Sequence record: PZ386946.1
Origin: a phage
Direction: 5' to 3' (one strand)
DNA length: 44,504 nt
Translations under genes and position numbers: made by a program
Shown here: one piece after another, positions 1-30,381 of the stretch
Layout of the letters: each line of letters begins with the position of its first letter
Position numbering within the stretch: the stretch's first letter is position 1
Notes under the pieces: generated by a model
Database searches by the model: none
What the model saw: only the letters and a program-made list of their open reading frames with translations
Told to the model about the DNA's origin: nothing

Positions 1-1566
1 ATGTCTTTAGTATGGGAAGAAATGACCATTCAGGAAAAGATGGCCGTTAAGGCGATATCAGAACACAGCTTCGAGGGCTTTCTTCGTTGCTGGTTCCAGA
101 TCACGCAAGGCGAGCGATACATCCCTAACTGGCATCACAAGTACTTGTGCAGAATAATTGACGAGATTATCGCAGGAGAGCGCAAGGACACCATCATTAA
201 CATAGCACCAGGCAGCGGAAAGACGGAAATTGCCTCAATCCACTTCCCGGCCTATTCGATGGTTAAGCTTAGGAAGGTGCGCAACCTTAACATCTCTTTT
301 GCTGACTCCCTGGTTAAGCGTAACTCGAAGCGAGTACGCGACCTTATCAAGTCTCAAGAATTTCAGTCACTCTGGCCATGCAAGTTTGGCACTTGCAAAG
401 ACGATGAGCTTCAGGTTCTTGATGAGAGTGGCAAGGTTAGATTTGAGTCAATATCAAAGGCGGCTGGAGGCCAGATTACTGGCGCTCGCGGTGGGTACAT
501 AACCGAAACATACAGCGGAGCCGTTCTTTTGGATGACTTTGACAAACCCGCAGATATGTTATCAGCAGTGTACCGATCGAATAATCACGTAATGCTTAAA
601 AATACGATTCGCTCACGTCGAGCCAGTTCTGTAAAAGGCAAAGCGACACCAATCATTTCGATACAGCAGCGGCTTCACGTCAATGACTCAACCTATTTCA
701 TGATGGAAGGCGGCATGGGTATCGAATTCGATTTGATTAAGATACCAGCATTAGTTACTGAGGATTACATTGATTCACTTCCTGACTGGATTAAAGATCA
801 GTTTGCTGATGACGTACTAAGCAGCGAATACATTGAGCGAGATGGCGTAAAGTACTACAGCTACTTTCCTAAAAAGGAATCCGTAAACGACCTGGTGGCA
901 ATGTGGGATAGCGACCCGTACACATTCCTTAGTCAATATCAGCAGGAGCCAGTAGCACTTGGTGGCAACCTAATTAACGTGGACTGGTTCCAGCGAATCA
1001 GTGATACGTTCAGACCTCCAGCTAAGTACGACTATCGATTCATAACTTGCGATACCGCAATGACCACTAAAAGTTACAGCGACTTCTCTGTTCTTCAGTT
1101 GTGGGGCTATAAAGATGCTAAGATTTACCTTATTGATCAGCGCAGGGGTAAATGGGAGGCCCCAGAGTTGGAGGCTGAACTGCTGGACTTCGAGAAGAAA
1201 TCAAGGGCAACCAGTCAGTCAGATGGTATCCTAAGAAAGATTATTATCGAGAAGAAAGCGTCTGGTATCGGCCTGATTCAATCAGCTGGCAGGGTTATGC
1301 GAACACCGATAGAGTCATACGTACCGGATAATGACAAGCTAACCAGGGTGATGAGTGCACTACCACAGATTAAGGCTGGTAACGTAGTTCTTCCAGAGTC
1401 ATCGCCGTGGCTAAACGGATTGCTCACTGAGGTTGCGGCTTTTACGGCAGATGACTCGCATAAGCACGACGACCAAATTGACTGTCTAACAATGGCGGCA
1501 AACCTTGTACTTAACATCGCGGATGATCCTAAGGCGAGACTAATGCGCATAGCAGGAATTAAATAG
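1..1566 (+). CDS. terminase large subunit
   Basis: 521 aa; Walker A-like APGSGKT and Walker B-like VLLDDFD in N-terminal ATPase, acidic C-terminal nuclease-like region; ATG at position 1 with RBS AAGAGGG at window end (circular permutation); directly follows small terminase across the window junction. Confidence 0.85.
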   Translation: MSLVWEEMTIQEKMAVKAISEHSFEGFLRCWFQITQGERYIPNWHHKYLCRIIDEIIAGERKDTIINIAPGSGKTEIASIHFPAYSMVKLRKVRNLNISFADSLVKRNSKRVRDLIKSQEFQSLWPCKFGTCKDDELQVLDESGKVRFESISKAAGGQITGARGGYITETYSGAVLLDDFDKPADMLSAVYRSNNHVMLKNTIRSRRASSVKGKATPIISIQQRLHVNDSTYFMMEGGMGIEFDLIKIPALVTEDYIDSLPDWIKDQFADDVLSSEYIERDGVKYYSYFPKKESVNDLVAMWDSDPYTFLSQYQQEPVALGGNLINVDWFQRISDTFRPPAKYDYRFITCDTAMTTKSYSDFSVLQLWGYKDAKIYLIDQRRGKWEAPELEAELLDFEKKSRATSQSDGILRKIIIEKKASGIGLIQSAGRVMRTPIESYVPDNDKLTRVMSALPQIKAGNVVLPESSPWLNGLLTEVAAFTADDSHKHDDQIDCLTMAANLVLNIADDPKARLMRIAGIK

Positions 1567-1606
1567 CACGAATTGCTAAACTAAGTCGCCACGGATGGCG
1601 TATAGT
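1562..1606 (+). promoter_or_regulatory. bipartite intergenic motif copy (AATAGCACGAATTGCTAAA - 22 nt - TATAGT)
   Basis: motif overlaps terminase stop codon TAG; spacer contains small hairpin CGCCA/TGGCG; followed by ATCGAAACGA leader and RBS. Confidence 0.5.
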
Positions 1607-1636
1607 TACTTCATCGAAACGAGAGGAGATAAACAA

Positions 1637-2026
1637 ATGACTACAATTTATTCAAAGGCATTATATCTTGGTAACATTGATAATGAAGACTGTGGATTCA
1701 CCGTTGGTAAGAAATATAGGGTTAACCGTTTTGATACTGATGATGAAAACTATTTTTGGTGCGTAGATGATCATGATGGTTACCGTTACATAAAAAACGG
1801 AGAATTCCACAAGTTTGATATCCGCGAAGAGGGAGAGGGTTTCGTAACTGAAAGCGAATGCGCAGCCAAAGCCACTGACAATAATAAAAAACCATATCTA
1901 AGATATTACATAAACGGACATGAGGTTGACGTGATTGAGTTCGGAAATGTTGGTCGTACTGTATATGCTCTTGATCGGGATGGCGTAAAGTGCGACACAA
2001 TCAAGTTCGAAGTAAAATTCGAGTAA
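1637..2026 (+). CDS. hypothetical protein (moron-like insert between terminase and portal)
   Basis: ORF track 1595..2026; chosen start is ATG 1637 preceded by GAGAGGAG RBS; upstream bipartite motif and downstream hairpin terminator; N-terminus MTTIYSK resembles the 30187 ORF. Confidence 0.55.
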   Translation: MTTIYSKALYLGNIDNEDCGFTVGKKYRVNRFDTDDENYFWCVDDHDGYRYIKNGEFHKFDIREEGEGFVTESECAAKATDNNKKPYLRYYINGHEVDVIEFGNVGRTVYALDRDGVKCDTIKFEVKFE

Positions 2027-2047
2027 TTAAAAGCCGTGTGATAAACT

Positions 2048-2071
2048 AGCCCCTACATGGGGCTTTTTTAT
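2048..2071 (+). terminator. rho-independent terminator
   Basis: hairpin AGCCCC-TACAT-GGGGCT followed by TTTTTTA. Confidence 0.6.
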
Positions 2072-2082
2072 TGGAGAAAAAC

Positions 2083-3336
2083 ATGGTTAAGACAGACAGC
2101 TACGCCAATATCTTTCTAGGCGGTAGTGATGGTAGTGAGATTTACGGAAGTTTACAGAATCAGGATCCTACAATCCTGTCTTCTCTTTATGCGAATAATG
2201 CACTGGTGCGTAGAATTATCGATACAATCCCGGAAACAGCATTAGCGGCAGGATTCTACATTGATGGTATTGATGATGAGCCTGCATTCTGGTCGCGCTG
2301 GGATGATTTTGAGATGACTCGGAATATTAACGACGCCTGGTCGTGGGCGAGATTATTCGGTGGTTCTGCCATTGTAGCTATCGTTAAGGACAATAGGGCG
2401 CTAACGAGTCCGGTAAGAGAAGGTGCAGAACTTGAAACTGTCCGTGTTTACGACCGCACGCAAGTAAAAGTACAAACTCGCGAGGAGAACCCACGCAACG
2501 CGCGATTTGGTAAGCCGCTAACCTATCGTATCACCACAAACGAAAGCGATATGTTCTACGATGTGCACTACAGCCGCATTCACATCATTGACGGAGAGCG
2601 AATTCCTAACGTAATGCGTAGGCAGAATGATGGCTGGGGCCGCAGCGTTCTATCAAGTGACATTCTTGACTCAATTAAGGATTACACCAACTGCGAACGA
2701 CTGGCTACGCAGTTACTGAAGCGCAAGCAGCAAGCAGTGTGGAAGGCGAAAGGTCTGGCTGAGTTATGTGATGATAGCGAAGGATTTGGTGCCGCTAGAT
2801 TACGACTTGCACAGGTTGATAACAATAGCGGCGTGGGTCAGGCGATTGGTATTGACGCAGAATCTGAAGAATACAGTGTTCTTAACTCTGATATTGGTGG
2901 TATTGATGCGTTTCTGGATAAGAAGTTTGACAGAATCGTCGCACTGAGCGGTATTCATGAAATCATCCTGAAGAACAAGAACGTCGGCGGCGTATCCTCA
3001 AGCCAGAATACAGCACTAGAGACATTTCACAAGCTGGTTGACCGCAAGCGCAACTCTGAGTTGCTTCCTATTCTTGAGTTCTTAATACCGTTCATTGTTA
3101 ACGTTGACGAATGGTCAGTTGAGTTTAATCCTCTGGCACAGGAATCAAGCAAGGACAAAGCGGAGATTCTGGAGAAGAACGTAAGCAGCATTGCTACACT
3201 AATTGCATCTGGCGCTATGGATACTAACGAGGCACGTGATACACTGCGAACTATCGCACCAGAGATTAAGATTGGTGATGGTGATATTGAATCTCAACAA
3301 CAAGAACCAGTAGAGGAGGCTGTAATTAATGAGTAA
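2083..3336 (+). CDS. portal protein (putative)
   Basis: about 417 aa ORF immediately after terminase; track start 2071 is TTG, ATG 2083 has GGAG 6 nt upstream; assignment by position and size. Confidence 0.65.
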   Translation: MVKTDSYANIFLGGSDGSEIYGSLQNQDPTILSSLYANNALVRRIIDTIPETALAAGFYIDGIDDEPAFWSRWDDFEMTRNINDAWSWARLFGGSAIVAIVKDNRALTSPVREGAELETVRVYDRTQVKVQTREENPRNARFGKPLTYRITTNESDMFYDVHYSRIHIIDGERIPNVMRRQNDGWGRSVLSSDILDSIKDYTNCERLATQLLKRKQQAVWKAKGLAELCDDSEGFGAARLRLAQVDNNSGVGQAIGIDAESEEYSVLNSDIGGIDAFLDKKFDRIVALSGIHEIILKNKNVGGVSSSQNTALETFHKLVDRKRNSELLPILEFLIPFIVNVDEWSVEFNPLAQESSKDKAEILEKNVSSIATLIASGAMDTNEARDTLRTIAPEIKIGDGDIESQQQEPVEEAVINE

Positions 3337-4414
3337 AATCCGCTATGACAGCGCAAAGTTTAAGGCAACAATCGACGAGAATGGATTCTTAGTCGACACT
3401 CCAGTGGTCGCACGTCTCGGTGTGCAGGTCTACTACATGGATGACGGCCGCACTGTCCGAGAGTTTCGCCCAGCGGAGGAGGTTTTCAAGGATGAATCTC
3501 TAGCCAGCTACCAGGGTAAGCCAATGACTCTTGACCATGTTTTCGTTAACTCAGAGAACGCTAAAGAGGTAGTAGTTGGCTCAGTTGCTGGAAAGGCAGA
3601 GCCATTAGGCAGCTCCGTGGTTGCTCCAATTGTTATTTACGATAACACAGCCATTAAGGAAGCTATGGCAGGTAACGCAAAGGAGTTATCCGTTGGATAC
3701 TCATCAGTTATTGATTACACCCCAGGTTGGGGTGACCCTGTTACTGGTGAGTACTTCCTTAAGTCTGAAAGTGAGCTATTCGACGTACCAGAAGGATGGC
3801 AGGAGTTCGACGCAATTCAGCGTGACATTAAAGTGAATCATCTCGCAATGGTATATCGCGGTCGCGCAGGTATTGCCAAATTGAATATGGACGGTGAGCA
3901 GGAAAACCCGTATACTACTGACGTTGATATCAATAAAGAGGATAAACAGGAAATGATTAAGATTAAACTCGACGGCGCGCAGGAATTCGAAGTCGCCCCG
4001 GAAATCGCTTCTCACATCGAAGCACTGAACGCAAAGGCTGACACTGCAATCGCAGAGCGTGATGCACTGAAAGCAAAAGTAGATGCAATGCCTTCTGAAA
4101 TCGAAGCTGCAGTTGCTAAAGCGAAAGCTGACGCTGATGCTCTTGCTGCTCTGGTAGCTGTTGCTGCTGAAGCTGGTGTAAAGGCTGATGGCCTGGATGC
4201 TAAAGGCATTAAAGTTGCCTACGTTAAAGAAATCTCCGGCCTTGATGTTAGTGAGAAATCTGATGCGTACATCGACGCGGCGTTCGACATTGCCAAAGAA
4301 TCTGATAAAATGGCTGAAGTACGTAAAGCGACTACCGCTTCCGACAAATCTGACAGCGCCGATGAGCCTAAGAAATTAGACCCACGTGCTCGTTTAGCTA
4401 AAATTAAGAAATAA
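3329..4414 (+). CDS. head morphogenesis protein (putative prohead protease/scaffold-like)
   Basis: 361 aa; overlaps portal stop; C-terminal Ala/Lys/Glu-rich predicted coiled coil typical of scaffolding proteins; function inferred from position. Confidence 0.45.
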   Translation: MSKIRYDSAKFKATIDENGFLVDTPVVARLGVQVYYMDDGRTVREFRPAEEVFKDESLASYQGKPMTLDHVFVNSENAKEVVVGSVAGKAEPLGSSVVAPIVIYDNTAIKEAMAGNAKELSVGYSSVIDYTPGWGDPVTGEYFLKSESELFDVPEGWQEFDAIQRDIKVNHLAMVYRGRAGIAKLNMDGEQENPYTTDVDINKEDKQEMIKIKLDGAQEFEVAPEIASHIEALNAKADTAIAERDALKAKVDAMPSEIEAAVAKAKADADALAALVAVAAEAGVKADGLDAKGIKVAYVKEISGLDVSEKSDAYIDAAFDIAKESDKMAEVRKATTASDKSDSADEPKKLDPRARLAKIKK

Positions 4415-4426
4415 GGAGTTATAAAC

Positions 4427-4936
4427 ATGGCAATTCGTTCCGTAGCACTAGCTGGTATGATTTCTGATACTTCGCTATATAACATCGACGGCGCTTGTGT
4501 GGTTGGCGGCGCAGCAGCCATTCCGGTTGGCACTTTTGTTGGCGTTACATCCGCTCAGCCTGTAGATGGTCACAAGGTTGTTGGACTCCCAGTCGTAACT
4601 GGATCGGAAGTTAAACCTTATGGTGTTGTTGTTAAATCTCATTACGAGACTCCAGATGGCACAGCTCGCGTAAATGAAGCGGTTAACGTAATGACACATG
4701 GTCGAATCTGGGTTCGTACAACTCTAGCGTCTGCTCCAGCTTTTGGTGGCAAGGTTTACGTAAACGCGAGTGGCGTTGTTGTTGCTGAGGCTGCTACCAC
4801 TACTTGGGAGACTGGATTTACATTTGCTGGCGGTTACATCGCAAATACCGGCACAGACACACAAAACATGAGCGTTGATGGCGCACTAGTTGAAGTTCAG
4901 CTAATTCAATCCGCAGACTCAACTGTTGCGGCTTAA
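4427..4936 (+). CDS. putative head decoration / minor capsid protein
   Basis: 169 aa ORF between scaffold-like gene and major capsid gene, strong RBS AAGGAG; function from position only. Confidence 0.35.
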   Translation: MAIRSVALAGMISDTSLYNIDGACVVGGAAAIPVGTFVGVTSAQPVDGHKVVGLPVVTGSEVKPYGVVVKSHYETPDGTARVNEAVNVMTHGRIWVRTTLASAPAFGGKVYVNASGVVVAEAATTTWETGFTFAGGYIANTGTDTQNMSVDGALVEVQLIQSADSTVAA

Positions 4937-4952
4937 TATTTAAGATATATAA

Positions 4953-4976
4953 AGCCTCCTTCGGGAGGTTTTTTAT
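4953..4976 (+). terminator. rho-independent terminator
   Basis: hairpin GCCTCC-TTCG-GGAGGT followed by TTTTTATT. Confidence 0.65.
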
Positions 4977-5060
4977 TGCTTGCATGCCCCACCATTGCGC
5001 GGCCCAAAAACTCGTGTATAATGAATCCGTAGACACCTAACTGAAAAGGAACAATAAAGA

Positions 5061-6005
5061 ATGGCCATTAAATTTGATGCAGAACAAGCAAAAATCACCG
5101 CTCACCTCGAGCAAATGGGCGTAGAGAAAGCCGATGCCGCTGGTATCTGGACCGTTAGCCAGTTGACCGCTTCCCTGAAGCGCGCCTACGAAAAAGAATA
5201 TGCAGAAAACTCAGTTGTCAATATCTTCCCGGTAACCAATGAAATTCCTGGTCATGCGAAGTATTTCGAATACCCAGAGTTTGATGGTGTTGGCATTGCA
5301 CAGATTATCGCTGATTACTCTGATGACCTGCCGCTGGTTGACTCTTTCATGACCGAGAAACAAGGTAAAGTGTTCCGTTTCGGTAACGCGTTCCTGATTT
5401 CCACGGATGAAATCAAAGCAGGCGCAGCAACTGGTCAGTCTCTGTCAACTCGCAAGCAAGCACTGGCTTTCGAAGCGCACGACAACCTGCTGGATAAACT
5501 GGTGTGGTCTGGTTCCACTCCTCACGGTATCGTAAGCGTATTCGATCAACCTAACATCAACAACGTTGTTGCCACTCCAAACTGGAGCGTCCCGCAGAAC
5601 GCGATTGATGACGTCACTGCGATGATTGATGCGGTTGAAAGCTCAACTCAGGGCCTACATCATGTAACTGACATTCTGCTTCCGGCTTCCGCTCGTCGAG
5701 TAATGCAGGGACTGGTTCCGCAGACAAACCTGAGTTACGGCGAATTGTTCACTCGTAACAACCCTGGTCTGACTATTCGCTTTATGCAGTTCCTGGATAA
5801 CTACGATGGCGCGGATGGTAAAGCTGCTCTGGCGTTTGAAAAGAGTCCACTCAATATGTCTATCGAGATTCCGGAAGCTACCAACGTTCTTCCAGGACAA
5901 CCTAAGGACTTGCACTTTAAGTACCCTGTAACATCAAAAGCGACAGGATTGATTGTTTATCGTCCTCTGACGATGGCTGTAATCAAAGGCATCACCTTCG
6001 CGTGA
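5061..6005 (+). CDS. major capsid protein
   Basis: 314 aa ORF flanked by strong hairpin terminators (4953..4976, 6011..6033), typical high-expression capsid gene context; position after scaffold/decoration genes. Confidence 0.7.
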   Translation: MAIKFDAEQAKITAHLEQMGVEKADAAGIWTVSQLTASLKRAYEKEYAENSVVNIFPVTNEIPGHAKYFEYPEFDGVGIAQIIADYSDDLPLVDSFMTEKQGKVFRFGNAFLISTDEIKAGAATGQSLSTRKQALAFEAHDNLLDKLVWSGSTPHGIVSVFDQPNINNVVATPNWSVPQNAIDDVTAMIDAVESSTQGLHHVTDILLPASARRVMQGLVPQTNLSYGELFTRNNPGLTIRFMQFLDNYDGADGKAALAFEKSPLNMSIEIPEATNVLPGQPKDLHFKYPVTSKATGLIVYRPLTMAVIKGITFA

Positions 6006-6010
6006 TAAAT

Positions 6011-6033
6011 CGCCCTCTTCGGAGGGCTTTTTT
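6011..6033 (+). terminator. rho-independent terminator after major capsid gene
   Basis: hairpin CGCCCTC-TTCG-GAGGGC followed by TTTTTT. Confidence 0.7.
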
Positions 6034-6097
6034 ACGTCTGTACCAAATGGATTTGTTGGGTTATAATCACTCAATCAGATAAACAAAGGAGACAAAA

Positions 6098-6343
6098 ATG
6101 ATTCGTTTAGAACACACTGGCGCTTGCCTTATCGTTTACAAGGGTGAGAAATATTTGCCTGGTGACACTTTCGAGGCTGATGTAATTTGCGACGGACTCA
6201 AGCGTTTAATCGCAGAGGGTAAACTCACCATTGAGGGTGATGCCAAAGCAACCAAACAGATTGCGCAAGAAGTTGTTAGCAAGAAAAAGCGCAAAGAACC
6301 GAAAACCATCTCCGAGGCTGAGACTGGTAACGAGTACAAATAA
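6098..6343 (+). CDS. hypothetical protein
   Basis: 81 aa ORF with AAAGGAG RBS, bracketed by hairpin terminators; Lys-rich C-terminus. Confidence 0.45.
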   Translation: MIRLEHTGACLIVYKGEKYLPGDTFEADVICDGLKRLIAEGKLTIEGDAKATKQIAQEVVSKKKRKEPKTISEAETGNEYK

Positions 6344-6384
6344 CAAATGGGGCGCTTCGGCGTCCTTTATTGTATGGAGCTAAT

Positions 6385-6786
6385 ATGAATGATGCAATTT
6401 TGGCGTTTATGCGCTCGCTTGTACCTGCTCTCAAAGCGGTGGGTGACGAATCAATTAATGTATGGATTGATTTGGCACGTCTATACGTATGCGAAAGCAA
6501 GTTTGGCGCAGACAAAGATAAGGCTGTGGGCCTTTATGCATTACACCTGATGCTCGCTGATGGCGCATTTAAGGGAGAGAATGAAGGGCTGGAAACATAC
6601 AGCCGTAGGATGGCAAGTTATGCACTGAGCGGTGAATTCTCTATCACCTATGATACTCAGTCAGCAGCATCTGGCGACTTATCATCTTCTCAATTCGGCA
6701 GGATGTACAAGGCGCTTCTTCGCAAGAAAGGTGGCGGCTTCGGATTGATTACTTCCGCTGGTGGCGGTGGGTGCGGCTGCCGATGA
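6385..6786 (+). CDS. putative head-tail connector / head completion protein
   Basis: track start 6370 is TTG; ATG 6385 has GGAG 5 nt upstream; position between capsid and tail genes. Confidence 0.4.
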   Translation: MNDAILAFMRSLVPALKAVGDESINVWIDLARLYVCESKFGADKDKAVGLYALHLMLADGAFKGENEGLETYSRRMASYALSGEFSITYDTQSAASGDLSSSQFGRMYKALLRKKGGGFGLITSAGGGGCGCR

Positions 6787-7154
6787 ACTACTCAGAGATC
6801 GAATCAATTACTCGCGATGGCATTAACTTCTTCAGTGATGCTAATGGGGTTTACGAGATGAGTACTGGTGCTGGATATGTTGAAATCGTTAACGGCGTTG
6901 AAGTAGAAGTTCCAGCGCAAACATTCCAGCTAAAAGGCTTGGTGCGAGAAATCAAGACGCGCGATATCGATGGTGAGTTTATCCAGTTTGGCGATAAGCG
7001 CGGAATCTTCACGGCACAGGTGGAAATCAAGCAGGGTTATCAGATTAAAGTTGATGGTGAGACTTTTGTTGTTGTTGACCCTCGACCTGTAAAACCTACA
7101 GGTACAGTTGCTGGTTACAGGCCAATACTTCGCAGGGTGGCTACTTATGGCTAG
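6783..7154 (+). CDS. putative head-tail joining protein
   Basis: ATGA start/stop overlap with upstream gene (translational coupling); position. Confidence 0.4.
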   Translation: MNYSEIESITRDGINFFSDANGVYEMSTGAGYVEIVNGVEVEVPAQTFQLKGLVREIKTRDIDGEFIQFGDKRGIFTAQVEIKQGYQIKVDGETFVVVDPRPVKPTGTVAGYRPILRRVATYG

Positions 7155-7584
7155 AAATATTGGAAGCGTGGCTACTTTTGAGAAATCTATTGCTGACTGG
7201 ATTGACAAGGCCGATAAAGGTTTCGAGATTGTAGTGGCTAATACTGTCATTAAAACAGCTAGCGCAATTGTTGACCTTTCGCCTGTAGACACTGGTAGGT
7301 TCAAAGCTAACTGGCAAATCACCGCAAATTCACCGGCCCAGCAATCACTGAATGAGTACGATCAGACTGGTGGGCAGACGAAAACATATCTCGCCAGACA
7401 GGCTAGATCAGTCGCCAACTCAAAAGCTACTAGTGTTATTTATATAACCAACCGACTTGATTACGCAGCAGATCTTGAGTACGGAGCTTCAAATCAGGCT
7501 CCAGCTGGCGTTTTAGGTGTGGTGCAAGCAAGATTGGGTAGGTATTTCCAGGAAGCAGTAGAGGAGGCGCGTCGTGCAATATGA
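7147..7584 (+). CDS. putative tail completion / neck protein
   Basis: ATG 7147 overlaps upstream stop; track start 7108 is TTG; position. Confidence 0.4.
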   Translation: MARNIGSVATFEKSIADWIDKADKGFEIVVANTVIKTASAIVDLSPVDTGRFKANWQITANSPAQQSLNEYDQTGGQTKTYLARQARSVANSKATSVIYITNRLDYAADLEYGASNQAPAGVLGVVQARLGRYFQEAVEEARRAI

Positions 7585-7975
7585 ATTATCATTAGCGGCA
7601 AGGAAATTCGTCAATGATTTACTGGTAAATGAATTTCCGGTCAGATATCCAGTTGCGTGGGAGAATGCTGCGTTCACTCCTCCGGCAGATGGGTCAATCT
7701 GGCTTAAGTACGACTACACAGAAGTTGATACTGTAACCTACGGATTAAGCAGGAAGTGCAAATACTACGTAGGCATGGTGCAGATTTCTGTTTTCTTCAG
7801 CCCGGGCACTGGAATTGACAGGCCCAGACAAATCGCTAATAAATTGGCAGAATCTATCGTTGATGGTACAATCATTGGCAGCGGGACCATTTATGATTCT
7901 GGAGTTGTTAACCCCGTTATCAAATCCAAGTCTGGGTGGTTTATCCCGGTTCGTTTTTATGTTCGTCTAGACTAA
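7574..7975 (+). CDS. putative tail terminator protein
   Basis: GTG start with GAGGAGG RBS 6 nt upstream, overlaps upstream stop; position before major tail protein. Confidence 0.4.
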   Translation: MQYELSLAARKFVNDLLVNEFPVRYPVAWENAAFTPPADGSIWLKYDYTEVDTVTYGLSRKCKYYVGMVQISVFFSPGTGIDRPRQIANKLAESIVDGTIIGSGTIYDSGVVNPVIKSKSGWFIPVRFYVRLD

Positions 7976-7990
7976 CAAAAGGAAAAATAC

Positions 7991-8647
7991 ATGGCTCATT
8001 TATCAAACGGCACCCAGGTGTTCGTAGAAGGCTCTCGCGGAACTGCAATTGACGTAACTGCAATTTCCAACGCAGCTACCCCTGTTTTAACTGTATCTGA
8101 AGGATCCGGCCTGGCTAAGGGTGACTACCTTCTGTTTACTGCCTCCAGCTCAACTCTCCTGAGCGACAAACAGGTGCGAGTAACTGAAGTTTCTGGCACT
8201 TCGGTAACAGTTGAGGGAATTGACACAACCAATACCACAAAGTTCCCGGCTGGTTTAACTGGTGAAGTTGTTAAAATTACCTCATGGTTCGAGGTTCCGT
8301 GTGTTCAGGACGTATCTACTGACGGCGGCGAGCAGCAATTCGTTAACTTCCAATGCTTGTCAGATGACCGCGAGCAGCAGATTCCAACTTACAAGTCTGC
8401 GGTAACGAATACCTTCACCTTCGCTCATGAGTACACTAACCCGGTTTATCCTGTTCTGCGTAACTACGATGAGTCAGGCCAGGTTGTTGCTATTCGTCTG
8501 TTTGTACCTCGCGCTCAGGAAATGCGTTTGCAGTCCGGCACTATCGCTTTCAACGACACACCTACCATTGGCGTTAACGAAATCGAAACGGTATCCATCG
8601 CAGTATCAATTCGTGGTCGACTGTCCTCTGTGGCAGCAGAAGTTTAA
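7991..8647 (+). CDS. major tail protein (putative)
   Basis: 218 aa ORF followed by strong hairpin terminator 8653..8678; position upstream of chaperone and tape measure. Confidence 0.6.
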   Translation: MAHLSNGTQVFVEGSRGTAIDVTAISNAATPVLTVSEGSGLAKGDYLLFTASSSTLLSDKQVRVTEVSGTSVTVEGIDTTNTTKFPAGLTGEVVKITSWFEVPCVQDVSTDGGEQQFVNFQCLSDDREQQIPTYKSAVTNTFTFAHEYTNPVYPVLRNYDESGQVVAIRLFVPRAQEMRLQSGTIAFNDTPTIGVNEIETVSIAVSIRGRLSSVAAEV

Positions 8648-8652
8648 AACGC

Positions 8653-8678
8653 AAACCCTCTTCGGAGGGTTTTTTATT
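8653..8678 (+). terminator. rho-independent terminator after major tail gene
   Basis: hairpin AAACCCTC-TTCG-GAGGGTTT followed by TTTTATT. Confidence 0.7.
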
Positions 8679-8680
8679 GC

Positions 8681-8724
8681 ATGGCACTTTTTGCTAAAGC
8701 GTTTATCCAGCTTTACTGTATAGT
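8681..8724 (+). promoter_or_regulatory. bipartite motif copy (variant ATGGCACTTTTTGCTAAAG ... TATAGT)
   Basis: variant first half, conserved TATAGTTACTTCATAGAAACGA second half. Confidence 0.4.
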
Positions 8725-8757
8725 TACTTCATAGAAACGAAATGAGAGACTAAAGAA

Positions 8758-9006
8758 ATGAATGACGTTAAAAACATCATCAAGTTTGCTGCAGTTCTGG
8801 TTGCTTTTTATGCAGCAGTTCAGATTGTTAACCCAACTGGAGAGGCGGATGCAAATAGCAAGGCAAACAAATATACTGTTGAATTTGCCAAGGCTGAGCG
8901 AGCATGTCAGGATCTTGTGGGTGGTAAGGTTGACCAAATCATGAAATATGGCAAAGAGGTCTGCAAGGACTCAGCTGCTAAGATTGCAAAAGAAAACACT
9001 AAGTAA
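8758..9006 (+). CDS. small secreted/membrane protein (moron-like)
   Basis: 82 aa; N-terminal hydrophobic segment FAAVLVAFYAAVQIV consistent with signal peptide or anchor; own copy of the bipartite motif upstream. Confidence 0.45.
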   Translation: MNDVKNIIKFAAVLVAFYAAVQIVNPTGEADANSKANKYTVEFAKAERACQDLVGGKVDQIMKYGKEVCKDSAAKIAKENTK

Positions 9007-9044
9007 TAGAATACATACTCATAAACAATAAGGGGATCAACAAA

Positions 9045-9359
9045 ATGGCTAAATTCAAACTTTCACTGGCAGCACTTCCTGACTTTAAGCTGCCTGTAAA
9101 ATTCAAGCTGGCTAACGACAAGGATGTAGAGGTTATCTTTACAGTAAAGCACAAGAAGACCTCAGAGCTTCAGGAGTTACTACAGAAAGAAGACTTAAGT
9201 ACTAAAGAATTGATCATGGCAATCGCCTCTGATTGGGATCTGGAAGAAGAATTTAATGAAGAAAACGTCATCGAGTTTGCTGATTTATTCCCAGCATCTA
9301 CAGTTGCGCTTACTACCTCTTATATGCAGTCGCTTGCTGGTCAGCGAGTAAAAAACTAA
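9045..9359 (+). CDS. tail assembly chaperone (lambda G-like)
   Basis: 104 aa ORF immediately upstream of tape measure; ends ...VKN with slippery heptamer A_AAA_AAC at 9350..9356. Confidence 0.6.
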   Translation: MAKFKLSLAALPDFKLPVKFKLANDKDVEVIFTVKHKKTSELQELLQKEDLSTKELIMAIASDWDLEEEFNEENVIEFADLFPASTVALTTSYMQSLAGQRVKN

Positions 9360-9679
9360 AACGAGCGGTGTATCTACAGTACCAGTCAGAGCCAACAGAT
9401 GCAGAACTGGAAGCTATTGGGATGCGCCGCTCTGATTACGAAGATGAAGATCCTGAGGTTTTACACTTCGATGACAACATGATGAAGGCATGGGATATTT
9501 ATTGTTCAATGGCTACACAGTGGAGAGTCGGGGCTAACGGAGCCACAGGTCTAGATTACAACGTGCTAAATTTCCTCTTTAGAGTGTATAATGTTTCTGA
9601 AGAAGAATTGGTGCTCAGTGATTTGCGCATCCTTGAAGCTAAGGCTCTTGAGATGATGGATAACCTGAGAAAAAAATAA
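9045..9679 (+). CDS. tail assembly chaperone GT-like fusion via -1 programmed frameshift at 9350..9356
   Basis: ORF 9368..9679 lies in the -1 frame relative to 9045..9359 and is open back to the slippery site AAAAAAC at the G terminus; conserved G/GT arrangement in tailed phages. Confidence 0.5.
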
Positions 9680-9701
9680 CCCGCTTCGGCGGGTTTTCTA
9701 T
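9677..9701 (+). terminator. rho-independent terminator
   Basis: hairpin AACCCGC-TTCG-GCGGGTT followed by TTCTATT. Confidence 0.55.
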
Positions 9702-9714
9702 TATGGAGGCTTAG

Positions 9715-12699
9715 ATGGCAACAAATGAATTAGCCGGAATCACACTAGCCGTAGACGTCTCGCAAGTAGACAGGGGCACGCAATCCCTACAGAAGTTCAG
9801 GCAAGCTAACCAGCAAGCCGCTTCCGGCATTAGTGAATTCGTCAATGCTGAGCAGGTTGCTAAAAACCAGGCAAGAGACACAGCTCGCGCACTGGCTGAA
9901 CAGCAAGCATCTTTAGCTAAATTGCAAACAGCTATCGACCCAACGGCTGCAAAGTTCCGCAAGCTGCAAGAGGCTGCTGTAGGTCTGGATAAGGCATTCG
10001 CGGCTGGCGTAGTTCCTGATGAGGAGTTTTTCCGATTAGGTGAGGCTCTTGAAACGCAGAATGCAAAACTTGCTCGTTCACGTGCAGCGCTAACTGAGGA
10101 GGGGAGGGCGGCAGCCCAGGCCGCAAAGGATAAGGCAAAAGCAAAAGCTGAAGCGGATAGATTTATCGCATCACTTGAGCGACAGGCTCAAGCAGCGACA
10201 TTGACGCGAGAGGAGTACCTAAAGTTACAAGCGGCCCAGCTTGGAGTTAGTTCCCAGGCTGCACCAATCATTGACAGAATCGCCGACGCATCACAGAAGG
10301 CAAATACCCAGTTAATTGCTCAGAGTAAGGCTTTTCAGAAATCAGGATTAAGCGCCGGGCAATACAAGAATGCCATATCTCAACTACCAGCGCAGATTAC
10401 TGATATTGGCACGTCGCTTGCTGGCGGAATTCCGATTTGGCTTATTGCAATTCAGCAGGGCGGGCAGATCAAGGATGCATTTGGCGGTATTGGTAACACC
10501 TTTAGATTCGCGCTTGCAGCCTTAAACCCATTTAATGTAGCTGTTGGTGTTTTGGGTGGCGCACTTATTGCTCTTGGTGTTGGTGCAGCTCAGGCTGAAA
10601 GTGAATTCAGAGCATTAAACTCCGCAATTGCTTTCTCCAACAACTCTACAATCGCATCAATCTCGCAGGTTAGAGAGTTGGTTAGCTCTGTTTCTGATGC
10701 AACAGGTGCTACCAGAGGACTTGTGACTAGCATCGCAACAAGCCTTATTGAGCAAGGGAACCTTACGCTGACGCAGATTGACAAGATTACTAAATCGACC
10801 GCAAGATGGGCGCAGTTGACAGGTAAGGATGCGAAGGAGATTACTGGTTACTATAACCAGATTGCAAGCGACCCAATCCAGGGTTTAGTTGATTTGGATA
10901 AGCGCTTTAACTTCCTCACACAGGGGCAGTTGACGACAATCGAAAACCTGAGAAAGACAAAGGGAGAAGTTGAGGCCGTTACTGCTGCGATTGATATTTT
11001 CAGCAAGTCTCAGGAAGCCAACCTTAACGACATAGCTGCGCAGTTAACTCCGCTTGAGCTAGCCTGGAATGATTTCAGAAAGTACATCTCTGATATCTGG
11101 GATGCAATTAGTCGTAGAACGGTTGGGGCGCTAAACCTTTTTGTTGATGTAATCGCCGGAACGATTGAACAGATCAGGGTATTCATTAACCAGGGTGATG
11201 TTCTGATTGGTGAATTCGTAATTAGCGCAACTCAGGCATTGCAGAACATTCCTGGTCTTGATGGCGTTGGTGATGATGTTATCAAGGGGCAGCAGAAGAT
11301 TATCGATGCCGCCAAGAAGCAAAACCTTGAGCTAGAGAAGTCTATCAAGGAGCGAGATGCCAGAATCAGAGATGGAGAGCTTGGTTACGTTACTCGCAGA
11401 GAAAATCAGAATACCAATGAGCAGTCAGGTACTGATGAGGAATTTGCAAAAAGGAAGAAGGCTCTTCAGGATGAGCTTGATGCGATCAAGAAGAACAGGA
11501 AAGAAGAAAATAGTAGGGTTAAGGAGCAAAGAGATTTAACAATTGGTTATGAATCTGGCGTTCTGGCGCTTCAGGCTCAACTCAAGGTGCTTCAGGAAAA
11601 CAGGGATATTGGCGCAGTAATAAGCAATGAGCGCAAGCAGTATCTTCAGGAGGAGGCCAAATTCAGGATTCTTGAGCAGAGACAACTTGATGGCTCAATT
11701 ACCAAAGAGCAAGCAAGACTTCTCATTGAAAAGGATAAAGTTCTTGAGTTAGCCAGACAGAAGGCTGAGCTAGGTGATCAGATTGTTTTGCAGGAGCGAG
11801 CTAATAAGTTAGCTGAAGATAACCGCAAGAAGATTCTTCAGATTAACAATGAAGCAAGTAACATCGACTTAGGTGCTGGGTTATCATCTCGTGAGCAACA
11901 GAGGGCAAGAGAGATTCAGGCTCTTCAGTCCAATCAGGTTAATGCTGGCGGCTCTCTTGATGATGTTGATTTTCAGCAGTTGCTGGAAGCAAGAAAGGAA
12001 TACTACAAGCAGGAGGATAATCTTAGGTCAGACTGGCAATCCGGTGTAACATCCACTCTCGCCGACTTGACAGAGAAGTACACTGACTACAACCAGATTG
12101 CTAAGGACTTGACAGTTGCGGCATTCGACGGGATTACAGAGCAAATCACTAACCTTGTAACCACTGGTGAGGCCAATTTCAGGGAGTTCACAGCAAACAT
12201 CCTCAAAATGATTGCGAAGATTGCAACTCAGTTACTTTTGGTTAAGGCTATTGAATCTACAATCAAGAGTTTTGGTGGTGACACTGGTGCAGGTAGCGCT
12301 TTCGAGTCAATAAAATCAGCAATTGGTTTCGCTGGCGGCGGCTACACTGGTAATGGCGGGAAATACCAACCAGCAGGTACTGTGCACCGTGGTGAGTTTG
12401 TATTCACAAAAGAAGCGACAAGCCGAATCGGTGTAAAAAACCTTTACGCACTAATGAAGGGTTATGCAAACGGCGGCGCTGTTGGTGGTCCATCTGGTTA
12501 TGCAAATGGCGGATTGGTTTCTGGTGGTACAGATGTTAATGTTAGCGGCATCACTGTTAACGTTAATGGTGGCGTTGGTGGCGACCCAGAGCAAGCTAAG
12601 GCACTGCAAAGCGGAGTCAAGGCTATAGTAGCGGAAGAGATTGCTCAGTCCTTCCAGCAGGGTGGGCGTGCTTATGCTTACCTGCGCGGATTCAACTAA
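9715..12699 (+). CDS. tail tape measure protein
   Basis: 994 aa, extensive predicted coiled coil, Gly-rich C-terminal region, located between chaperone and M/L/K/I/J-like genes. Confidence 0.9.
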   Translation: MATNELAGITLAVDVSQVDRGTQSLQKFRQANQQAASGISEFVNAEQVAKNQARDTARALAEQQASLAKLQTAIDPTAAKFRKLQEAAVGLDKAFAAGVVPDEEFFRLGEALETQNAKLARSRAALTEEGRAAAQAAKDKAKAKAEADRFIASLERQAQAATLTREEYLKLQAAQLGVSSQAAPIIDRIADASQKANTQLIAQSKAFQKSGLSAGQYKNAISQLPAQITDIGTSLAGGIPIWLIAIQQGGQIKDAFGGIGNTFRFALAALNPFNVAVGVLGGALIALGVGAAQAESEFRALNSAIAFSNNSTIASISQVRELVSSVSDATGATRGLVTSIATSLIEQGNLTLTQIDKITKSTARWAQLTGKDAKEITGYYNQIASDPIQGLVDLDKRFNFLTQGQLTTIENLRKTKGEVEAVTAAIDIFSKSQEANLNDIAAQLTPLELAWNDFRKYISDIWDAISRRTVGALNLFVDVIAGTIEQIRVFINQGDVLIGEFVISATQALQNIPGLDGVGDDVIKGQQKIIDAAKKQNLELEKSIKERDARIRDGELGYVTRRENQNTNEQSGTDEEFAKRKKALQDELDAIKKNRKEENSRVKEQRDLTIGYESGVLALQAQLKVLQENRDIGAVISNERKQYLQEEAKFRILEQRQLDGSITKEQARLLIEKDKVLELARQKAELGDQIVLQERANKLAEDNRKKILQINNEASNIDLGAGLSSREQQRAREIQALQSNQVNAGGSLDDVDFQQLLEARKEYYKQEDNLRSDWQSGVTSTLADLTEKYTDYNQIAKDLTVAAFDGITEQITNLVTTGEANFREFTANILKMIAKIATQLLLVKAIESTIKSFGGDTGAGSAFESIKSAIGFAGGGYTGNGGKYQPAGTVHRGEFVFTKEATSRIGVKNLYALMKGYANGGAVGGPSGYANGGLVSGGTDVNVSGITVNVNGGVGGDPEQAKALQSGVKAIVAEEIAQSFQQGGRAYAYLRGFN

Positions 12700-19683: not shown

Positions 19684-19707
19684 CCCCTTTCGGGGCTTTT
19701 CTTTTAC
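19684..19707. terminator. bidirectional hairpin terminator between convergent tail and cor-like genes
   Basis: hairpin GCCCC-TTTCG-GGGC flanked by A-rich upstream and T-rich downstream sequence. Confidence 0.55.
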
Positions 19708-19925
19708 ATCGAGCAATCGTGAGACTTAAAGTTATTCTCTGACACGTAGTGGAATGAGAAGGGGTATCCAGCACGTAATAGCATCTCCTCACCGCGCATC
19801 TGGGAGCCAAAAACGTAAACCGAGTACTCTGAGCCACCTGATTCATAAATCGCCGTACAAGTGCGCTCTGGCATCGTAGAGCAACCACTCAGGAGTAATG
19901 CTGCAATTGCGAAAGTCTTTTTCAT
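19704..19925 (-). CDS. cor: Cor-like superinfection exclusion lipoprotein (putative)
   Basis: 73 aa; signal peptide plus lipobox LLSGC; small lipoprotein encoded convergent to the tail-tip genes as Cor in T1/phi80-like phages; RBS AAGGTGG before MKKTF start. Confidence 0.55.
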   Translation of the reverse strand: MKKTFAIAALLLSGCSTMPERTCTAIYESGGSEYSVYVFGSQMRGEEMLLRAGYPFSFHYVSENNFKSHDCSM

Positions 19926-19935
19926 CTTACCCACC

Positions 19936-20040
19936 TTAGAAACCGTTAAAATTCGAAGCCAGCAGCAGAACCCACACGAAGAAACCAGTTACAGCAGCGC
20001 CAGCGACCAGAGCGATTGAGTTGTTGATTAAGTTAGTCAT
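19936..20040 (-). CDS. small hydrophobic peptide (34 aa)
   Basis: not in ORF track (<60 aa); MTNLINNSIALVAGAAVTGFFVWVLLLASNFNGF, single predicted TM helix; downstream of minus-strand bipartite motif, stop abuts Cor-like start. Confidence 0.3.
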   Translation of the reverse strand: MTNLINNSIALVAGAAVTGFFVWVLLLASNFNGF

Positions 20041-20080
20041 TTTGTATCCCTTATTAAGTATGTTTCGTTTCGATGGAGTA

Positions 20081-20127
20081 ACTATAGCAAAGGCCGCTGC
20101 GGGAGTCTTTAGCAATTCGTGCTATTT
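20081..20127 (-). promoter_or_regulatory. bipartite motif copy, minus orientation
   Basis: reverse complement of AATAGCACGAATTGCTAAAG...TATAGTTACTCCATCGAAACGAAAC; precedes 34-aa ORF and Cor-like gene. Confidence 0.5.
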
Positions 20128-26832: not shown

Positions 26833-27306
26833 TTACTCTTTAGCTTTTCGTGCTGCCTCATTGGCGGCTTTAATTTTGCGCCAGGATCGGCACTCAGGCT
26901 TAGTAGCCAGCTCAGCTTCTGTTACCACGCGCAGCATATGACGCTTTTTGCATCGCAGCGTAAGCGGCTTTCCGTTGCCATCGAATTGCAGATCCGGTCG
27001 GCAGAATGTGGCTCGAAAACCTTCTCCATTTCTTTTGTAGTAGTTGTGTGACAGCTGAGCTCCACGTGCAGAAATCATACCACGCTTAAACCATTCTTCT
27101 ACAGCCTGAGGAGTTACCTTTAACTGCTTCGCAATGTTTGCCTTTGTGCCGAAGAAATCAAGAACCATCTCTAGCCGTGCGCGTAGCCCGGCTCTTACTT
27201 CATCTTTTAAAACGTAGTAACCTGAAGGTCGTTTTCGTTGTTTTTTGTCTTCAGTGCGGACGGTTCCGTTATTGCCGTTAATGGTGCGCTTGTCAACTGC
27301 ATTCAT
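26833..27306 (-). CDS. HTH DNA-binding protein (putative transcriptional regulator)
   Basis: start ATG 27306 with GAGGT RBS (track start 27342); helix-turn-helix-like IAKQLKVTPQAVEEWFKRG; basic termini. Confidence 0.5.
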   Translation of the reverse strand: MNAVDKRTINGNNGTVRTEDKKQRKRPSGYYVLKDEVRAGLRARLEMVLDFFGTKANIAKQLKVTPQAVEEWFKRGMISARGAQLSHNYYKRNGEGFRATFCRPDLQFDGNGKPLTLRCKKRHMLRVVTEAELATKPECRSWRKIKAANEAARKAKE

Positions 27307-27407
27307 TTCATTACCTCGATAGCATTTTTTGTTAAAAGTCATTCTGATTTGATGGTAGTATTGTACTCAATTAAACGCTACAAGACAATTTTTATAGGAA
27401 TTTAGAT

Positions 27408-30186: not shown

Positions 30187-30381
30187 ATGGCTACTATCTA
30201 CACTGGTAAATTATACGAATCACGCAAAACTGGTTACGAGTATGAATTAGTAATCACCGCTGATGGTTATGTTCTTGACGATGGTGAAGGTTATGCTTTC
30301 GAAGTTATCCCAACCTACAAGGATGATTTAGAGACTGTTAAAAACGTATTTGGCGAAAAATTTGACGAGGTATCAGAATGA
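30187..30381 (+). CDS. hypothetical acidic protein
   Basis: ATG 30187 (track start 30139 lies in motif); N-terminus MATIYTGKLYE similar to 1637 ORF. Confidence 0.45.
   Translation: MATIYTGKLYESRKTGYEYELVITADGYVLDDGEGYAFEVIPTYKDDLETVKNVFGEKFDEVSE

What the first reader, a model, noticed from the sequence alone, without database searches (positions are those of the whole stretch)
1637..9006. Moron-like inserts with their own motif and terminator inside the structural gene block
Genes 1637..2026 (between terminase and portal), 6098..6343 (between capsid and connector genes) and 8758..9006 (between major tail and chaperone genes) each interrupt the conserved morphogenesis order. Two of them carry a copy of the bipartite motif. 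Each is followed or flanked by hairpin terminators. The 8758 product has a signal-peptide-like N-terminus. These look like independently expressed accessory genes (morons) whose products may act on the host envelope or in exclusion.
Basis: inference. Interest (0 to 1): 0.45.

Follow-up and report, generated by a model that had tools for sequence, protein, structure and literature searches.

The report
Two accessory gene cassettes, one core gene
In this T1/Rtp-like coliphage, two of the three flagged small genes are optional add-ons carried on promoter-like cassettes, one of them an exported protein that may block rival phages. The third is an ordinary core gene found in every relative.

Summary
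The window is an Rtp-like coliphage (Drexlerviridae, Braunvirinae). All three ORFs exist at the stated coordinates, but they are not one class.

- **Gene A (1637..2026) and gene C (8758..9006)** sit in slots that are empty in T1, in most Drexlerviridae and in some close relatives. Each is preceded by the bipartite motif.
- **The motif** is family-wide and abundant in the small-ORF region upstream of the terminase. In 50 loci covering the terminase-to-tape-measure block it occurs there only at these two slots, and only when a cassette is present.
- **Gene A** is low in GC (37.9%), fast-evolving (dN/dS about 0.45), cytoplasmic, and belongs to a narrow family.
- **Gene C** has a signal-peptide-like N-terminus and two conserved cysteines. 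Its slot holds a lipoprotein or a small membrane peptide in other relatives. The phage's Cor exclusion gene has the same motif upstream.
- **Gene B (6098..6343)** is DUF7444, the homologue of T1 gp46. It is present in this slot in every locus that spans it, under strong purifying selection. It is not a moron.
- **The terminators** belong to the family-wide layout. Gene A uses the ancestral terminase terminator; gene C has none downstream.

The functions of A, B and C are inferred, not shown.

The parts
1563..1622 (+). Bipartite promoter-like motif in front of gene A. The upstream half is at 1563-1580 and overlaps the terminase stop codon; it contains the inverted repeat TAGCA-N5-TGCTA. The downstream half is at 1601-1622 and starts with TATAGT.
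   Evidence: Exact match to both halves. Conserved in front of every gene-A homologue. Absent when the slot is empty.
1637..2026 (+). Gene A, 129 aa. An accessory, fast-evolving cytoplasmic protein (phrog_14592) with an N-terminal SH3-like barrel and a conserved C-terminal beta-beta-alpha-beta domain ending GVKCDTIKFEVKFE.
2048..2064 (+). Intrinsic terminator after gene A. It is the ancestral terminator of the large terminase gene, not one brought in by the cassette.
   Evidence: -15.8 kcal/mol, z -4.5. The same hairpin directly follows the terminase stop codon in empty-slot genomes and in T1.
6012..6027 (+). Intrinsic terminator after the major capsid gene. Family-wide.
6062..6067 (+). TATAAT box between the capsid terminator and gene B. 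It has no good -35 element. It is conserved in the Braunvirinae/Rogunavirinae-like loci and absent in the other subfamilies, where gene B starts right after the terminator.
   Evidence: Read from the sequence.
6098..6343 (+). Gene B, 81 aa. A core Drexlerviridae gene (Pfam DUF7444, phrog_2716, homologue of T1 gp46/ST46). Not a moron.
6349..6366 (+). Hairpin terminator or attenuator after gene B, with a weak U-tract. Family-wide.
8653..8672 (+). Intrinsic terminator after the major tail gene. Family-wide.
8681..8740 (+). Bipartite motif in front of gene C. The upstream half (8681-8698) is degenerate, ATGGCACTTTTTGCTAAA. The downstream half (8719-8740) has 1 mismatch.
   Evidence: It sits at the same offset from the major tail stop codon in all relatives that carry a cassette, whichever gene follows.
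8758..9006 (+). Gene C, 82 aa. An accessory exported or membrane-anchored protein (phrog_22925) with a roughly 50-residue helical domain and two conserved cysteines (C50, C69).
8984..9012 (+). Sigma-70-like promoter candidate TTGCAA-17-TAGAAT, overlapping the end of gene C. It aligns with the TGcTATAAT box that directly precedes the chaperone gene in SU57, whose slot is empty.

Best explanation
The finding merges two different things.

(1) Genes A and C are accessory 'promoter-like motif plus ORF' cassettes placed in the late structural operon.
- Each consists of the family's bipartite motif, a ribosome-binding site and one small ORF.
- Each sits just downstream of an abundant structural gene. 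Cassette A lies between the terminase stop codon and the pre-existing terminase terminator. Cassette C lies between the major-tail terminator and the pre-existing chaperone promoter.
- I infer that they are transcribed as the small-ORF region is, independently of read-through from the structural genes.
- Gene C is most likely exported to the periplasm or inner membrane. There it would act on the envelope, most plausibly to exclude or interfere with DNA entry by related phages, as HK97 gp15 and Cor do.
- Gene A is a cytoplasmic, rapidly evolving protein. It most likely works at the phage-host interface (host takeover, anti-defence, or being sensed by a defence system) rather than in assembly.

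(2) Gene B is a core Drexlerviridae gene. It sits between two family-wide terminators, which would give it a transcript level between that of the capsid gene and the connector genes. It is not among the proteins modelled in the T1 virion, so I infer an assembly or packaging accessory role.

Shown: positions, motif, terminators, variability of the slots, selection regime, composition, hydrophobic signals. Inferred: promoter activity and timing, export, and all three functions.
For: Variable slots.
- The terminase-portal slot holds the gene-A family in only 8 distinct genomes of about 57 that span it (window, EC3a, Rtp, JulesPiccard, AugustePiccard, L005, L008, L014). In L005 the ORF is interrupted. 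The slot is empty or holds a homing endonuclease in the rest.
- T1 has a 54-bp gap there.
- The major-tail to chaperone slot is empty in most loci, in T1 and in SU57. It holds gene C in about 80 phage records, an rtp34-type lipoprotein in 4 phages, and a 41-aa membrane peptide in L065.

Motif.
- Across 50 loci spanning terminase to tape measure there are 130 copies upstream of the terminase.
- Inside the block, copies occur only after the terminase (9 locus entries, all with gene A) and after the major tail gene (8 entries, all with a cassette).
- The same motif lies upstream of Cor (phrog_1119, E 1.6e-28).

Insertion boundaries are visible against empty-slot genomes.

Selection and composition.
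- dN/dS is 0.42-0.48 for A in four of five comparisons (0.22 against the saturated EC3a copy), 0.10-0.23 for C and 0.04-0.18 for B. Flanking structural genes give 0.02-0.27, mostly below 0.16.
- GC of A is 37.9%, below the 5th percentile of same-size windows in the block.

Export signals. C has a hydrophobic core, an invariant NPxG and two conserved cysteines. rtp34 has the lipobox LLAGC.

Gene B. It is in every locus that spans the slot, with both terminators. It matches DUF7444 at 68 bits against a cut-off of 27. The T1 whole-virion cryo-EM paper models 13 proteins and gp46 is not among them (PMC11945409). There is no PDB sequence match.
Against: - No transcription data exist for any relative that I could find, so promoter activity and timing are untested.
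- The motif has a 22-bp gap between its TTGCTA and TATAGT boxes. It is therefore not a standard sigma-70 promoter and would need an activator or another factor.
- Gene C has no terminator before the chaperone gene. Its motif could mainly serve to restart tail-gene transcription.
- PHROGs and RefSeq label the gene-A family 'virion structural protein'. I could not trace or exclude the basis for that label.
- No homology links A or C to any characterised protein.
- The third allele in the C slot shares its first 9 residues with rtp34, so only two of the three alleles are independent.
Confidence: 0.6

Rival explanations
1. Gene A is a non-essential virion component, such as a head decoration or minor capsid protein, as its database label says. 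Its conserved C-terminal tail would anchor it to a conserved capsid partner, and its variable N-domain would be surface-exposed.
For: phrog_14592 is labelled 'virion structural protein', and RefSeq names the homologues in Rtp, Jk06 and IME253 the same way. The C-terminus GVKCDTIKFEVKFE is invariant while the N-terminal two-thirds vary. Other optional decoration genes occupy nearby slots in relatives.
Against: I found no proteomic report that detects it; the published gel-band studies list only large proteins. It is absent from close relatives with 92-93% identical portals. The fold search finds only SH3-like barrels and small uncharacterised phage proteins, and no decoration fold. Its motif and low GC match the small-ORF region, not the structural genes.
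Confidence: 0.2
2. The motif copies in the structural block are mainly restart promoters that rebuild late transcription after strong terminators. The ORFs behind them are passengers with little function of their own.
For: Terminator-then-promoter pairs are the rule in this block. SU57 and the Rogunavirinae-like loci have an extended -10 box right after the major-tail terminator. No terminator separates gene C from the chaperone genes.
Against: A strong terminator lies between gene A and the portal gene, so that copy cannot feed the portal gene efficiently. A separate sigma-70-like box (8984-9012) already precedes the chaperone gene. Both ORFs are under purifying selection, with dN/dS below 0.5. 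Three different membrane-targeted ORFs occupy the C slot.
Confidence: 0.15
3. All three are conserved morphogenesis genes.
For: True for B: it is in every locus at the same position.
Against: A and C are absent from T1, from most of the family and from some close relatives. C is replaced by unrelated genes in others.
Confidence: 0.05
4. Gene C is a membrane factor for the phage's own cycle, for example a lysis-timing or tail-assembly helper at the inner membrane, rather than an exclusion protein.
For: It is probably co-transcribed with the tail assembly genes. It is a small, membrane-targeted protein.
Against: It is dispensable in SU57 and absent outside one clade. It is interchangeable with an unrelated lipoprotein. 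The lysis genes lie elsewhere in the relative JulesPiccard.
Confidence: 0.1

Closest known systems
HK97 gene 15 moron (inner-membrane superinfection exclusion protein; PMC3594210)
   Same: A small membrane-targeted protein encoded by extra DNA inside the tail operon, next to the tail assembly chaperone genes, in a slot that is empty in relatives. This is the closest parallel to gene C.
   Different: HK97 is temperate and its moron has its own promoter and terminator for expression from the prophage. Here the phage belongs to a virulent family, there is no downstream terminator, and the upstream element is the family's own motif. No exclusion phenotype has been tested.
Cor superinfection exclusion lipoprotein of T1, N15 and phi80 (phrog_1119)
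   Same: A Cor gene is present in this window at 19704..19925 on the minus strand, with the same bipartite motif upstream. It is a small exported protein of an otherwise lytic phage.
   Different: Gene C does not match the Cor profile. rtp34 resembles Cor only in the signal peptide. The genomic position differs: Cor lies after the receptor-binding genes.
T1 gp46 (ST46) and Pfam DUF7444
   Same: Gene B is a member: 68.4 bits against a cut-off of 27, same slot, same pair of flanking terminators, and pairwise E 9e-7 to ST46.
   Different: Nothing differs; the family has no known function.
Lambda gpFI (DNA-packaging accessory encoded between the capsid gene E and the connector gene FII). Gene order from my own knowledge.
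   Same: Same map position as gene B, small size, and not an ordered virion component.
Promoter-early stem-loop cassettes of T4-type phages (mobile regulatory cassettes that mediate gene shuffling). From my own knowledge, not checked here.
   Same: A repeated promoter-like element bounds small accessory genes. Different genes are found behind the same element at one locus, as with gene C, rtp34 and the 41-aa peptide.
   Different: Different sequence and different phage family. Here the element has an 18-nt part holding an inverted repeat and a 22-nt part starting with a -10-like box, at a fixed 38-39 nt offset. Neither recombination at the element nor promoter activity is shown.
Gp54 of phage Bas11 (PDB 9axb; trigger of CapRelSJ46; PMC11578894)

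Membership tests
Moron (Hendrix/Juhala sense, as summarised in PMC3594210) | Extra DNA between two genes that are adjacent in related phages | tested here: met
   Met for A and C. Not met for B, which is present in every relative spanning the slot.
Moron (Hendrix/Juhala sense) | Own promoter | tested here: inconclusive
   A and C each carry the bipartite motif with a TATAGT box. B has only a TATAAT box. Promoter activity is not shown, and the 22-bp spacing is not canonical.
Moron (Hendrix/Juhala sense) | Own terminator | tested here: not met
   The terminator after A is the ancestral terminase terminator, present in empty-slot genomes. There is no hairpin after C. Both terminators around B are family-wide.
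Moron (Hendrix/Juhala sense) | Base composition different from the surrounding genes | tested here: met
   Met for A: 37.9% GC against a block mean of 45.7% (sd 2.8), below the 5th percentile. C at 41.4% and B at 44.7% are within range.
Moron (Hendrix/Juhala sense) | Expressed from a repressed prophage to the benefit of the lysogen | not testable with these tools
   The relatives are described as virulent Drexlerviridae. This feature probably does not apply.
Superinfection exclusion envelope proteins (Cor, Llp, HK97 gp15 type) | Small exported, lipid-anchored or membrane-inserted protein | tested here: inconclusive
   Gene C has a 15-residue hydrophobic core (Kyte-Doolittle 2.33), an invariant NPxG and two conserved cysteines. 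The alternative alleles have a lipobox or a transmembrane segment. No SignalP run or topology experiment was possible.
Superinfection exclusion envelope proteins | Sequence membership in a known exclusion family | tested here: not met
   Gene C matches only phrog_22925 (unknown function). It has no match in Pfam, NCBIfam or PDB.
Superinfection exclusion envelope proteins | Blocks adsorption or DNA entry of incoming phage | not testable with these tools
   Needs plating and DNA-entry assays.
Pfam DUF7444 (PF24231), T1 gp46 family | Profile match above the curated cut-off, in the slot between the capsid and adaptor genes | tested here: met
   Gene B scores 68.4 bits against a cut-off of 27. Same slot in all loci and in T1.
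phrog_14592 ('virion structural protein') | Profile match | tested here: met
   Gene A matches at E 4.6e-30 over the full length.
phrog_14592 ('virion structural protein') | Presence in the virion | not testable with these tools
   I found no proteomic evidence in the papers read. The label's basis is unknown.
Lambda gpFI-like packaging accessory | Fold or sequence similarity to gpFI | tested here: not met

The most novel reading that the evidence does not exclude
The bipartite motif may be a portable, activator-dependent promoter of the phage's small-ORF (probably early) gene class, and may also serve as a recombination anchor. Through it, T1-like phages would plug small conflict genes into fixed sockets of the late operon. 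The socket after the major tail gene would be a swap site for envelope-targeted proteins (gene C, the rtp34 lipoprotein, the 41-aa peptide) that block DNA entry by related phages during infection by a virulent phage.
Probability: 0.25. Interest if true: 0.55.

Novelty: new member of a known kind. Interest (0 to 1): 0.38.

Why it matters
- **Cheap, testable candidates.** The analysis separates a core gene of unknown function (B) from two optional genes (A and C). Gene C and its two slot-mates are candidate exclusion or envelope factors of a virulent phage family that is used in therapy work and is a notorious laboratory contaminant.
- **A possible conflict gene.** Gene A is a fast-evolving small protein of the kind that has turned out to be a defence trigger or anti-defence factor in related phages.
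- **Finding further accessory genes.** Within the structural block, the motif marks exactly the accessory cassettes. This gives a simple rule for finding further accessory genes in Drexlerviridae genomes.

Tried and rejected
- **PDB sequence searches** for A, B and C found nothing meaningful.
- **NCBIfam** had no match for any of them. Pfam matched only B.
- **Paralogy** between gene A's N-domain and other motif-driven small ORFs of the window (30187, 33744, 37592, 42169) was suggested by shared N-terminal residues, but it is not significant.
- **The 64-aa ORF at 30187** is not a sequence homologue of Bas11 Gp54.
- **A profile search with gene A** against 1.84 billion representatives gave 34 hits. 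The long ones are repeat proteins (fn3, integrase repeats) and are spurious.
- **Rfam** found no RNA family in 1..10000.
- **Literature** gave no virion proteomics covering these small proteins and no transcriptomics for the family. The motif sequence is not in the held library.
- **The Rtp genome paper** could not be read.
- **The ORF at 8427..8723**, which overlaps the motif, has no family match and is treated as spurious.


Full report
**What the window is.** Bases 1-10000 are 85-90% identical in DNA to Rtp-like coliphages: Veterinaerplatzvirus T145P1, JulesPiccard, IME253, EC3a and Rtp (Drexlerviridae, Braunvirinae). The gene order is large terminase, gene A, portal, protease, cement protein, major capsid protein, gene B, DUF4054 adaptor, three connector genes, major tail protein, gene C, two chaperone genes, and tape measure. 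This order is supported by annotated relatives, Pfam and matches to solved T1-type virion proteins.

**Checking the observation.**
- The motif GTATAGTTACTTCATNGAAACGA lies upstream of A and C. There are 5 window matches at up to 3 mismatches against none in 100 shuffles.
- Its full form is ATAGCACGAATTGCTAAA, about 20 variable bases, then TATAGTTACTTCATCGAAACGA.
- Six GC-rich UUCG hairpins with U-tracts lie just after stop codons, at 2048, 4951, 6012, 6349, 8653 and 9678. Their free energies are -11.8 to -15.8 kcal/mol, with z-scores of -3.4 to -4.5.
- A is followed by one hairpin, B is flanked by two, and C is preceded by one. Nothing folds between C and the chaperone gene.
- The N-terminus of C has a 15-residue hydrophobic core, followed by an invariant N-P-x-G and small residues.

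**Synteny.** I compared 56 IMG/VR loci found through the portal protein (41-98% identity), four GenBank relatives, T1 and SU57.

| Slot | State in the family | What it means |
|---|---|---|
| Terminase to portal | 39-100 bp and empty in T1, in nearly all loci of the more distant clade (portal identity 62% or less; a few hold a homing endonuclease or another insert) and in close relatives L007, L010 and L012. It holds the gene-A family in 8 distinct genomes (interrupted in L005). It holds a homing endonuclease in others. | Variable; A is accessory |
| Capsid to adaptor | Holds the gene-B family in every locus that spans it | Fixed; B is core |
| Major tail to chaperone | 75-145 bp and empty in most loci, in T1 and in SU57. 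Holds gene C in about 80 phage records. Holds the unrelated 128-aa rtp34 protein in four phages. Holds a 41-aa hydrophobic peptide in metagenome locus L065. | Variable; C is accessory and swappable |

**Anatomy of the inserts.**
- In empty-slot genomes the terminase stop codon is followed directly by ccgtgataaactagcccctacatggggctttttt. That is the hairpin which follows gene A in the window. Cassette A (motif, ribosome-binding site, ORF) therefore lies upstream of a pre-existing terminator.
- In SU57 the major-tail terminator is followed by cTGcTATAAT and then the chaperone gene.
- In the window the corresponding box is TAGAAT at 9007-9012, with TTGCAA 17 bp upstream, overlapping the end of gene C. 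Cassette C therefore lies between the old terminator and the old chaperone promoter.
- All three alleles of this slot sit behind the same motif, at the same offset from the major tail stop codon.

**The motif as a marker.**
- In the window the motif has at least 12 copies, most in front of small ORFs of unknown function. One copy precedes a 34-aa membrane peptide and the Cor exclusion lipoprotein (phrog_1119, E 1.6e-28).
- Across 50 loci that span terminase to tape measure, 130 copies lie in the small-ORF region upstream of the terminase.
- Inside the structural block, copies occur only after the terminase (9 locus entries, all with gene A) and after the major tail gene (8 entries, all with a cassette).
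- The TTGCTA and TATAGT boxes are 22 bp apart at every site. This does not fit a standard sigma-70 promoter.
- The upstream half holds the inverted repeat TAGCA-N5-TGCTA. If transcription starts 7 nt after TATAGT, the repeat is centred near -42, which suggests an activator site. This is inference only.

**Gene A.**
- The family is narrow: 20 phage records and 34 representatives among 1.84 billion proteins, all standalone proteins of about 105-140 aa.
- Identity to the window copy is 34-65% among phage records, while the flanking DNA is 85-90% identical.
- dN/dS is 0.42-0.48 in four of five comparisons, against 0.02-0.08 for the terminase and portal genes at similar dS.
- GC is 37.9%, below the 5th percentile for the block.
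- The last 14 residues are nearly invariant.
- The 'virion structural protein' label could be neither traced nor excluded.

**Gene C.**
- It is under purifying selection, with dN/dS of 0.10-0.23.
- C50 is invariant and C69 nearly so. No known family matches.
- Its slot-mate rtp34 has the lipobox LLAGC. The third allele is a hydrophobic peptide that shares rtp34's first nine residues.
- The nearest known parallel is HK97 gene 15. It is a small inner-membrane exclusion protein encoded by a moron next to the chaperone genes (PMC3594210).

**Gene B.**
- It matches Pfam DUF7444 and is the homologue of T1 gp46. dN/dS is 0.04-0.18, and the C-terminal tail is strongly conserved.
- Both flanking terminators are found throughout the family, T1 included.
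- In the more distant subfamilies the gene starts right after the capsid terminator, with no room for a promoter. There it must be expressed by read-through.
- The T1 whole-virion structure paper models 13 proteins and gp46 is not among them. No PDB chain matches gene B, and its model has no significant fold match.
- It shares map position with lambda gpFI, but nothing else.

**Verdict.** It fails for B and for 'own terminators'. An envelope or exclusion role is a reasonable hypothesis for C and an unlikely one for A. All functions remain inferred.

Noticed in passing
window 1563, 8681, 20125(-), 21949, 25788, 29821, 30107, 33683, 37673(-), 38765(-), 41271, 42095, 43008; also loci L005-L060: The bipartite motif is a family-wide element across Drexlerviridae. 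The offset between the starts of its two halves is fixed at 38-39 nt. TTGCTA and TATAGT are 22 bp apart, and the upstream half holds an inverted repeat, TAGCA-N5-TGCTA. It often begins right at the stop codon of the upstream gene (TAAATAG). I did not find it in the literature library.
   Followed up: partly
window 19704..19925 (-) and 19936..20040 (-): A Cor superinfection exclusion lipoprotein (phrog_1119) is preceded by a 34-aa transmembrane peptide. They converge on the receptor-binding genes and have the same bipartite motif upstream, at 20065-20125.
   Followed up: partly
window 3329..3336 (portal/protease overlap): The window has no homologue of the Mu F-like head morphogenesis gene (rtp24, T1 gp51). 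That gene sits between the portal and protease genes in Rtp, T1 and most Drexlerviridae loci. tblastn finds nothing anywhere in the window. EC3a, JulesPiccard, AugustePiccard and others lack it too.
   Followed up: partly
window 4937..5060; loci L004, L005, L007, L009, L012-L018: The slot between the cement and capsid genes is empty here (127 bp). In relatives it holds up to 3.6 kb of extra genes, annotated as 'head outer capsid protein' and 'collagen repeat protein'. This is another hypervariable site in the head module.
   Followed up: no
loci L004, L005, L007, L009, L013, L014, L018, L039, L057: One family of homing-endonuclease-like ORFs (115-196 aa; AugustePiccard's copy is annotated as a putative homing endonuclease) occupies the same post-terminator slots in relatives: terminase-portal, capsid-gene B and portal-protease. 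In AugustePiccard it carries a second, degenerate copy of the motif.
   Followed up: no
window 1587..1600: The normally variable spacer of the motif in front of gene A holds a small hairpin, CGCCACGGATGGCG. It is conserved in this slot across relatives. A similar string (CCACGGATGGCA) lies in the motif copy at 43008.
   Followed up: no
window 26833..27342 (-): A phage-encoded transcriptional regulator (phrog_2856, E 1e-84, with weak MerR-like HTH matches). It is a candidate for binding the inverted-repeat half of the motif.
   Followed up: no
window 6098..6343 compared with loci L001-L012: Gene B has lower synonymous divergence from close relatives (dS 0.12-0.37) than the capsid gene just upstream (0.43-0.88). 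This could reflect recent exchange or a constraint at the RNA level.
   Followed up: no
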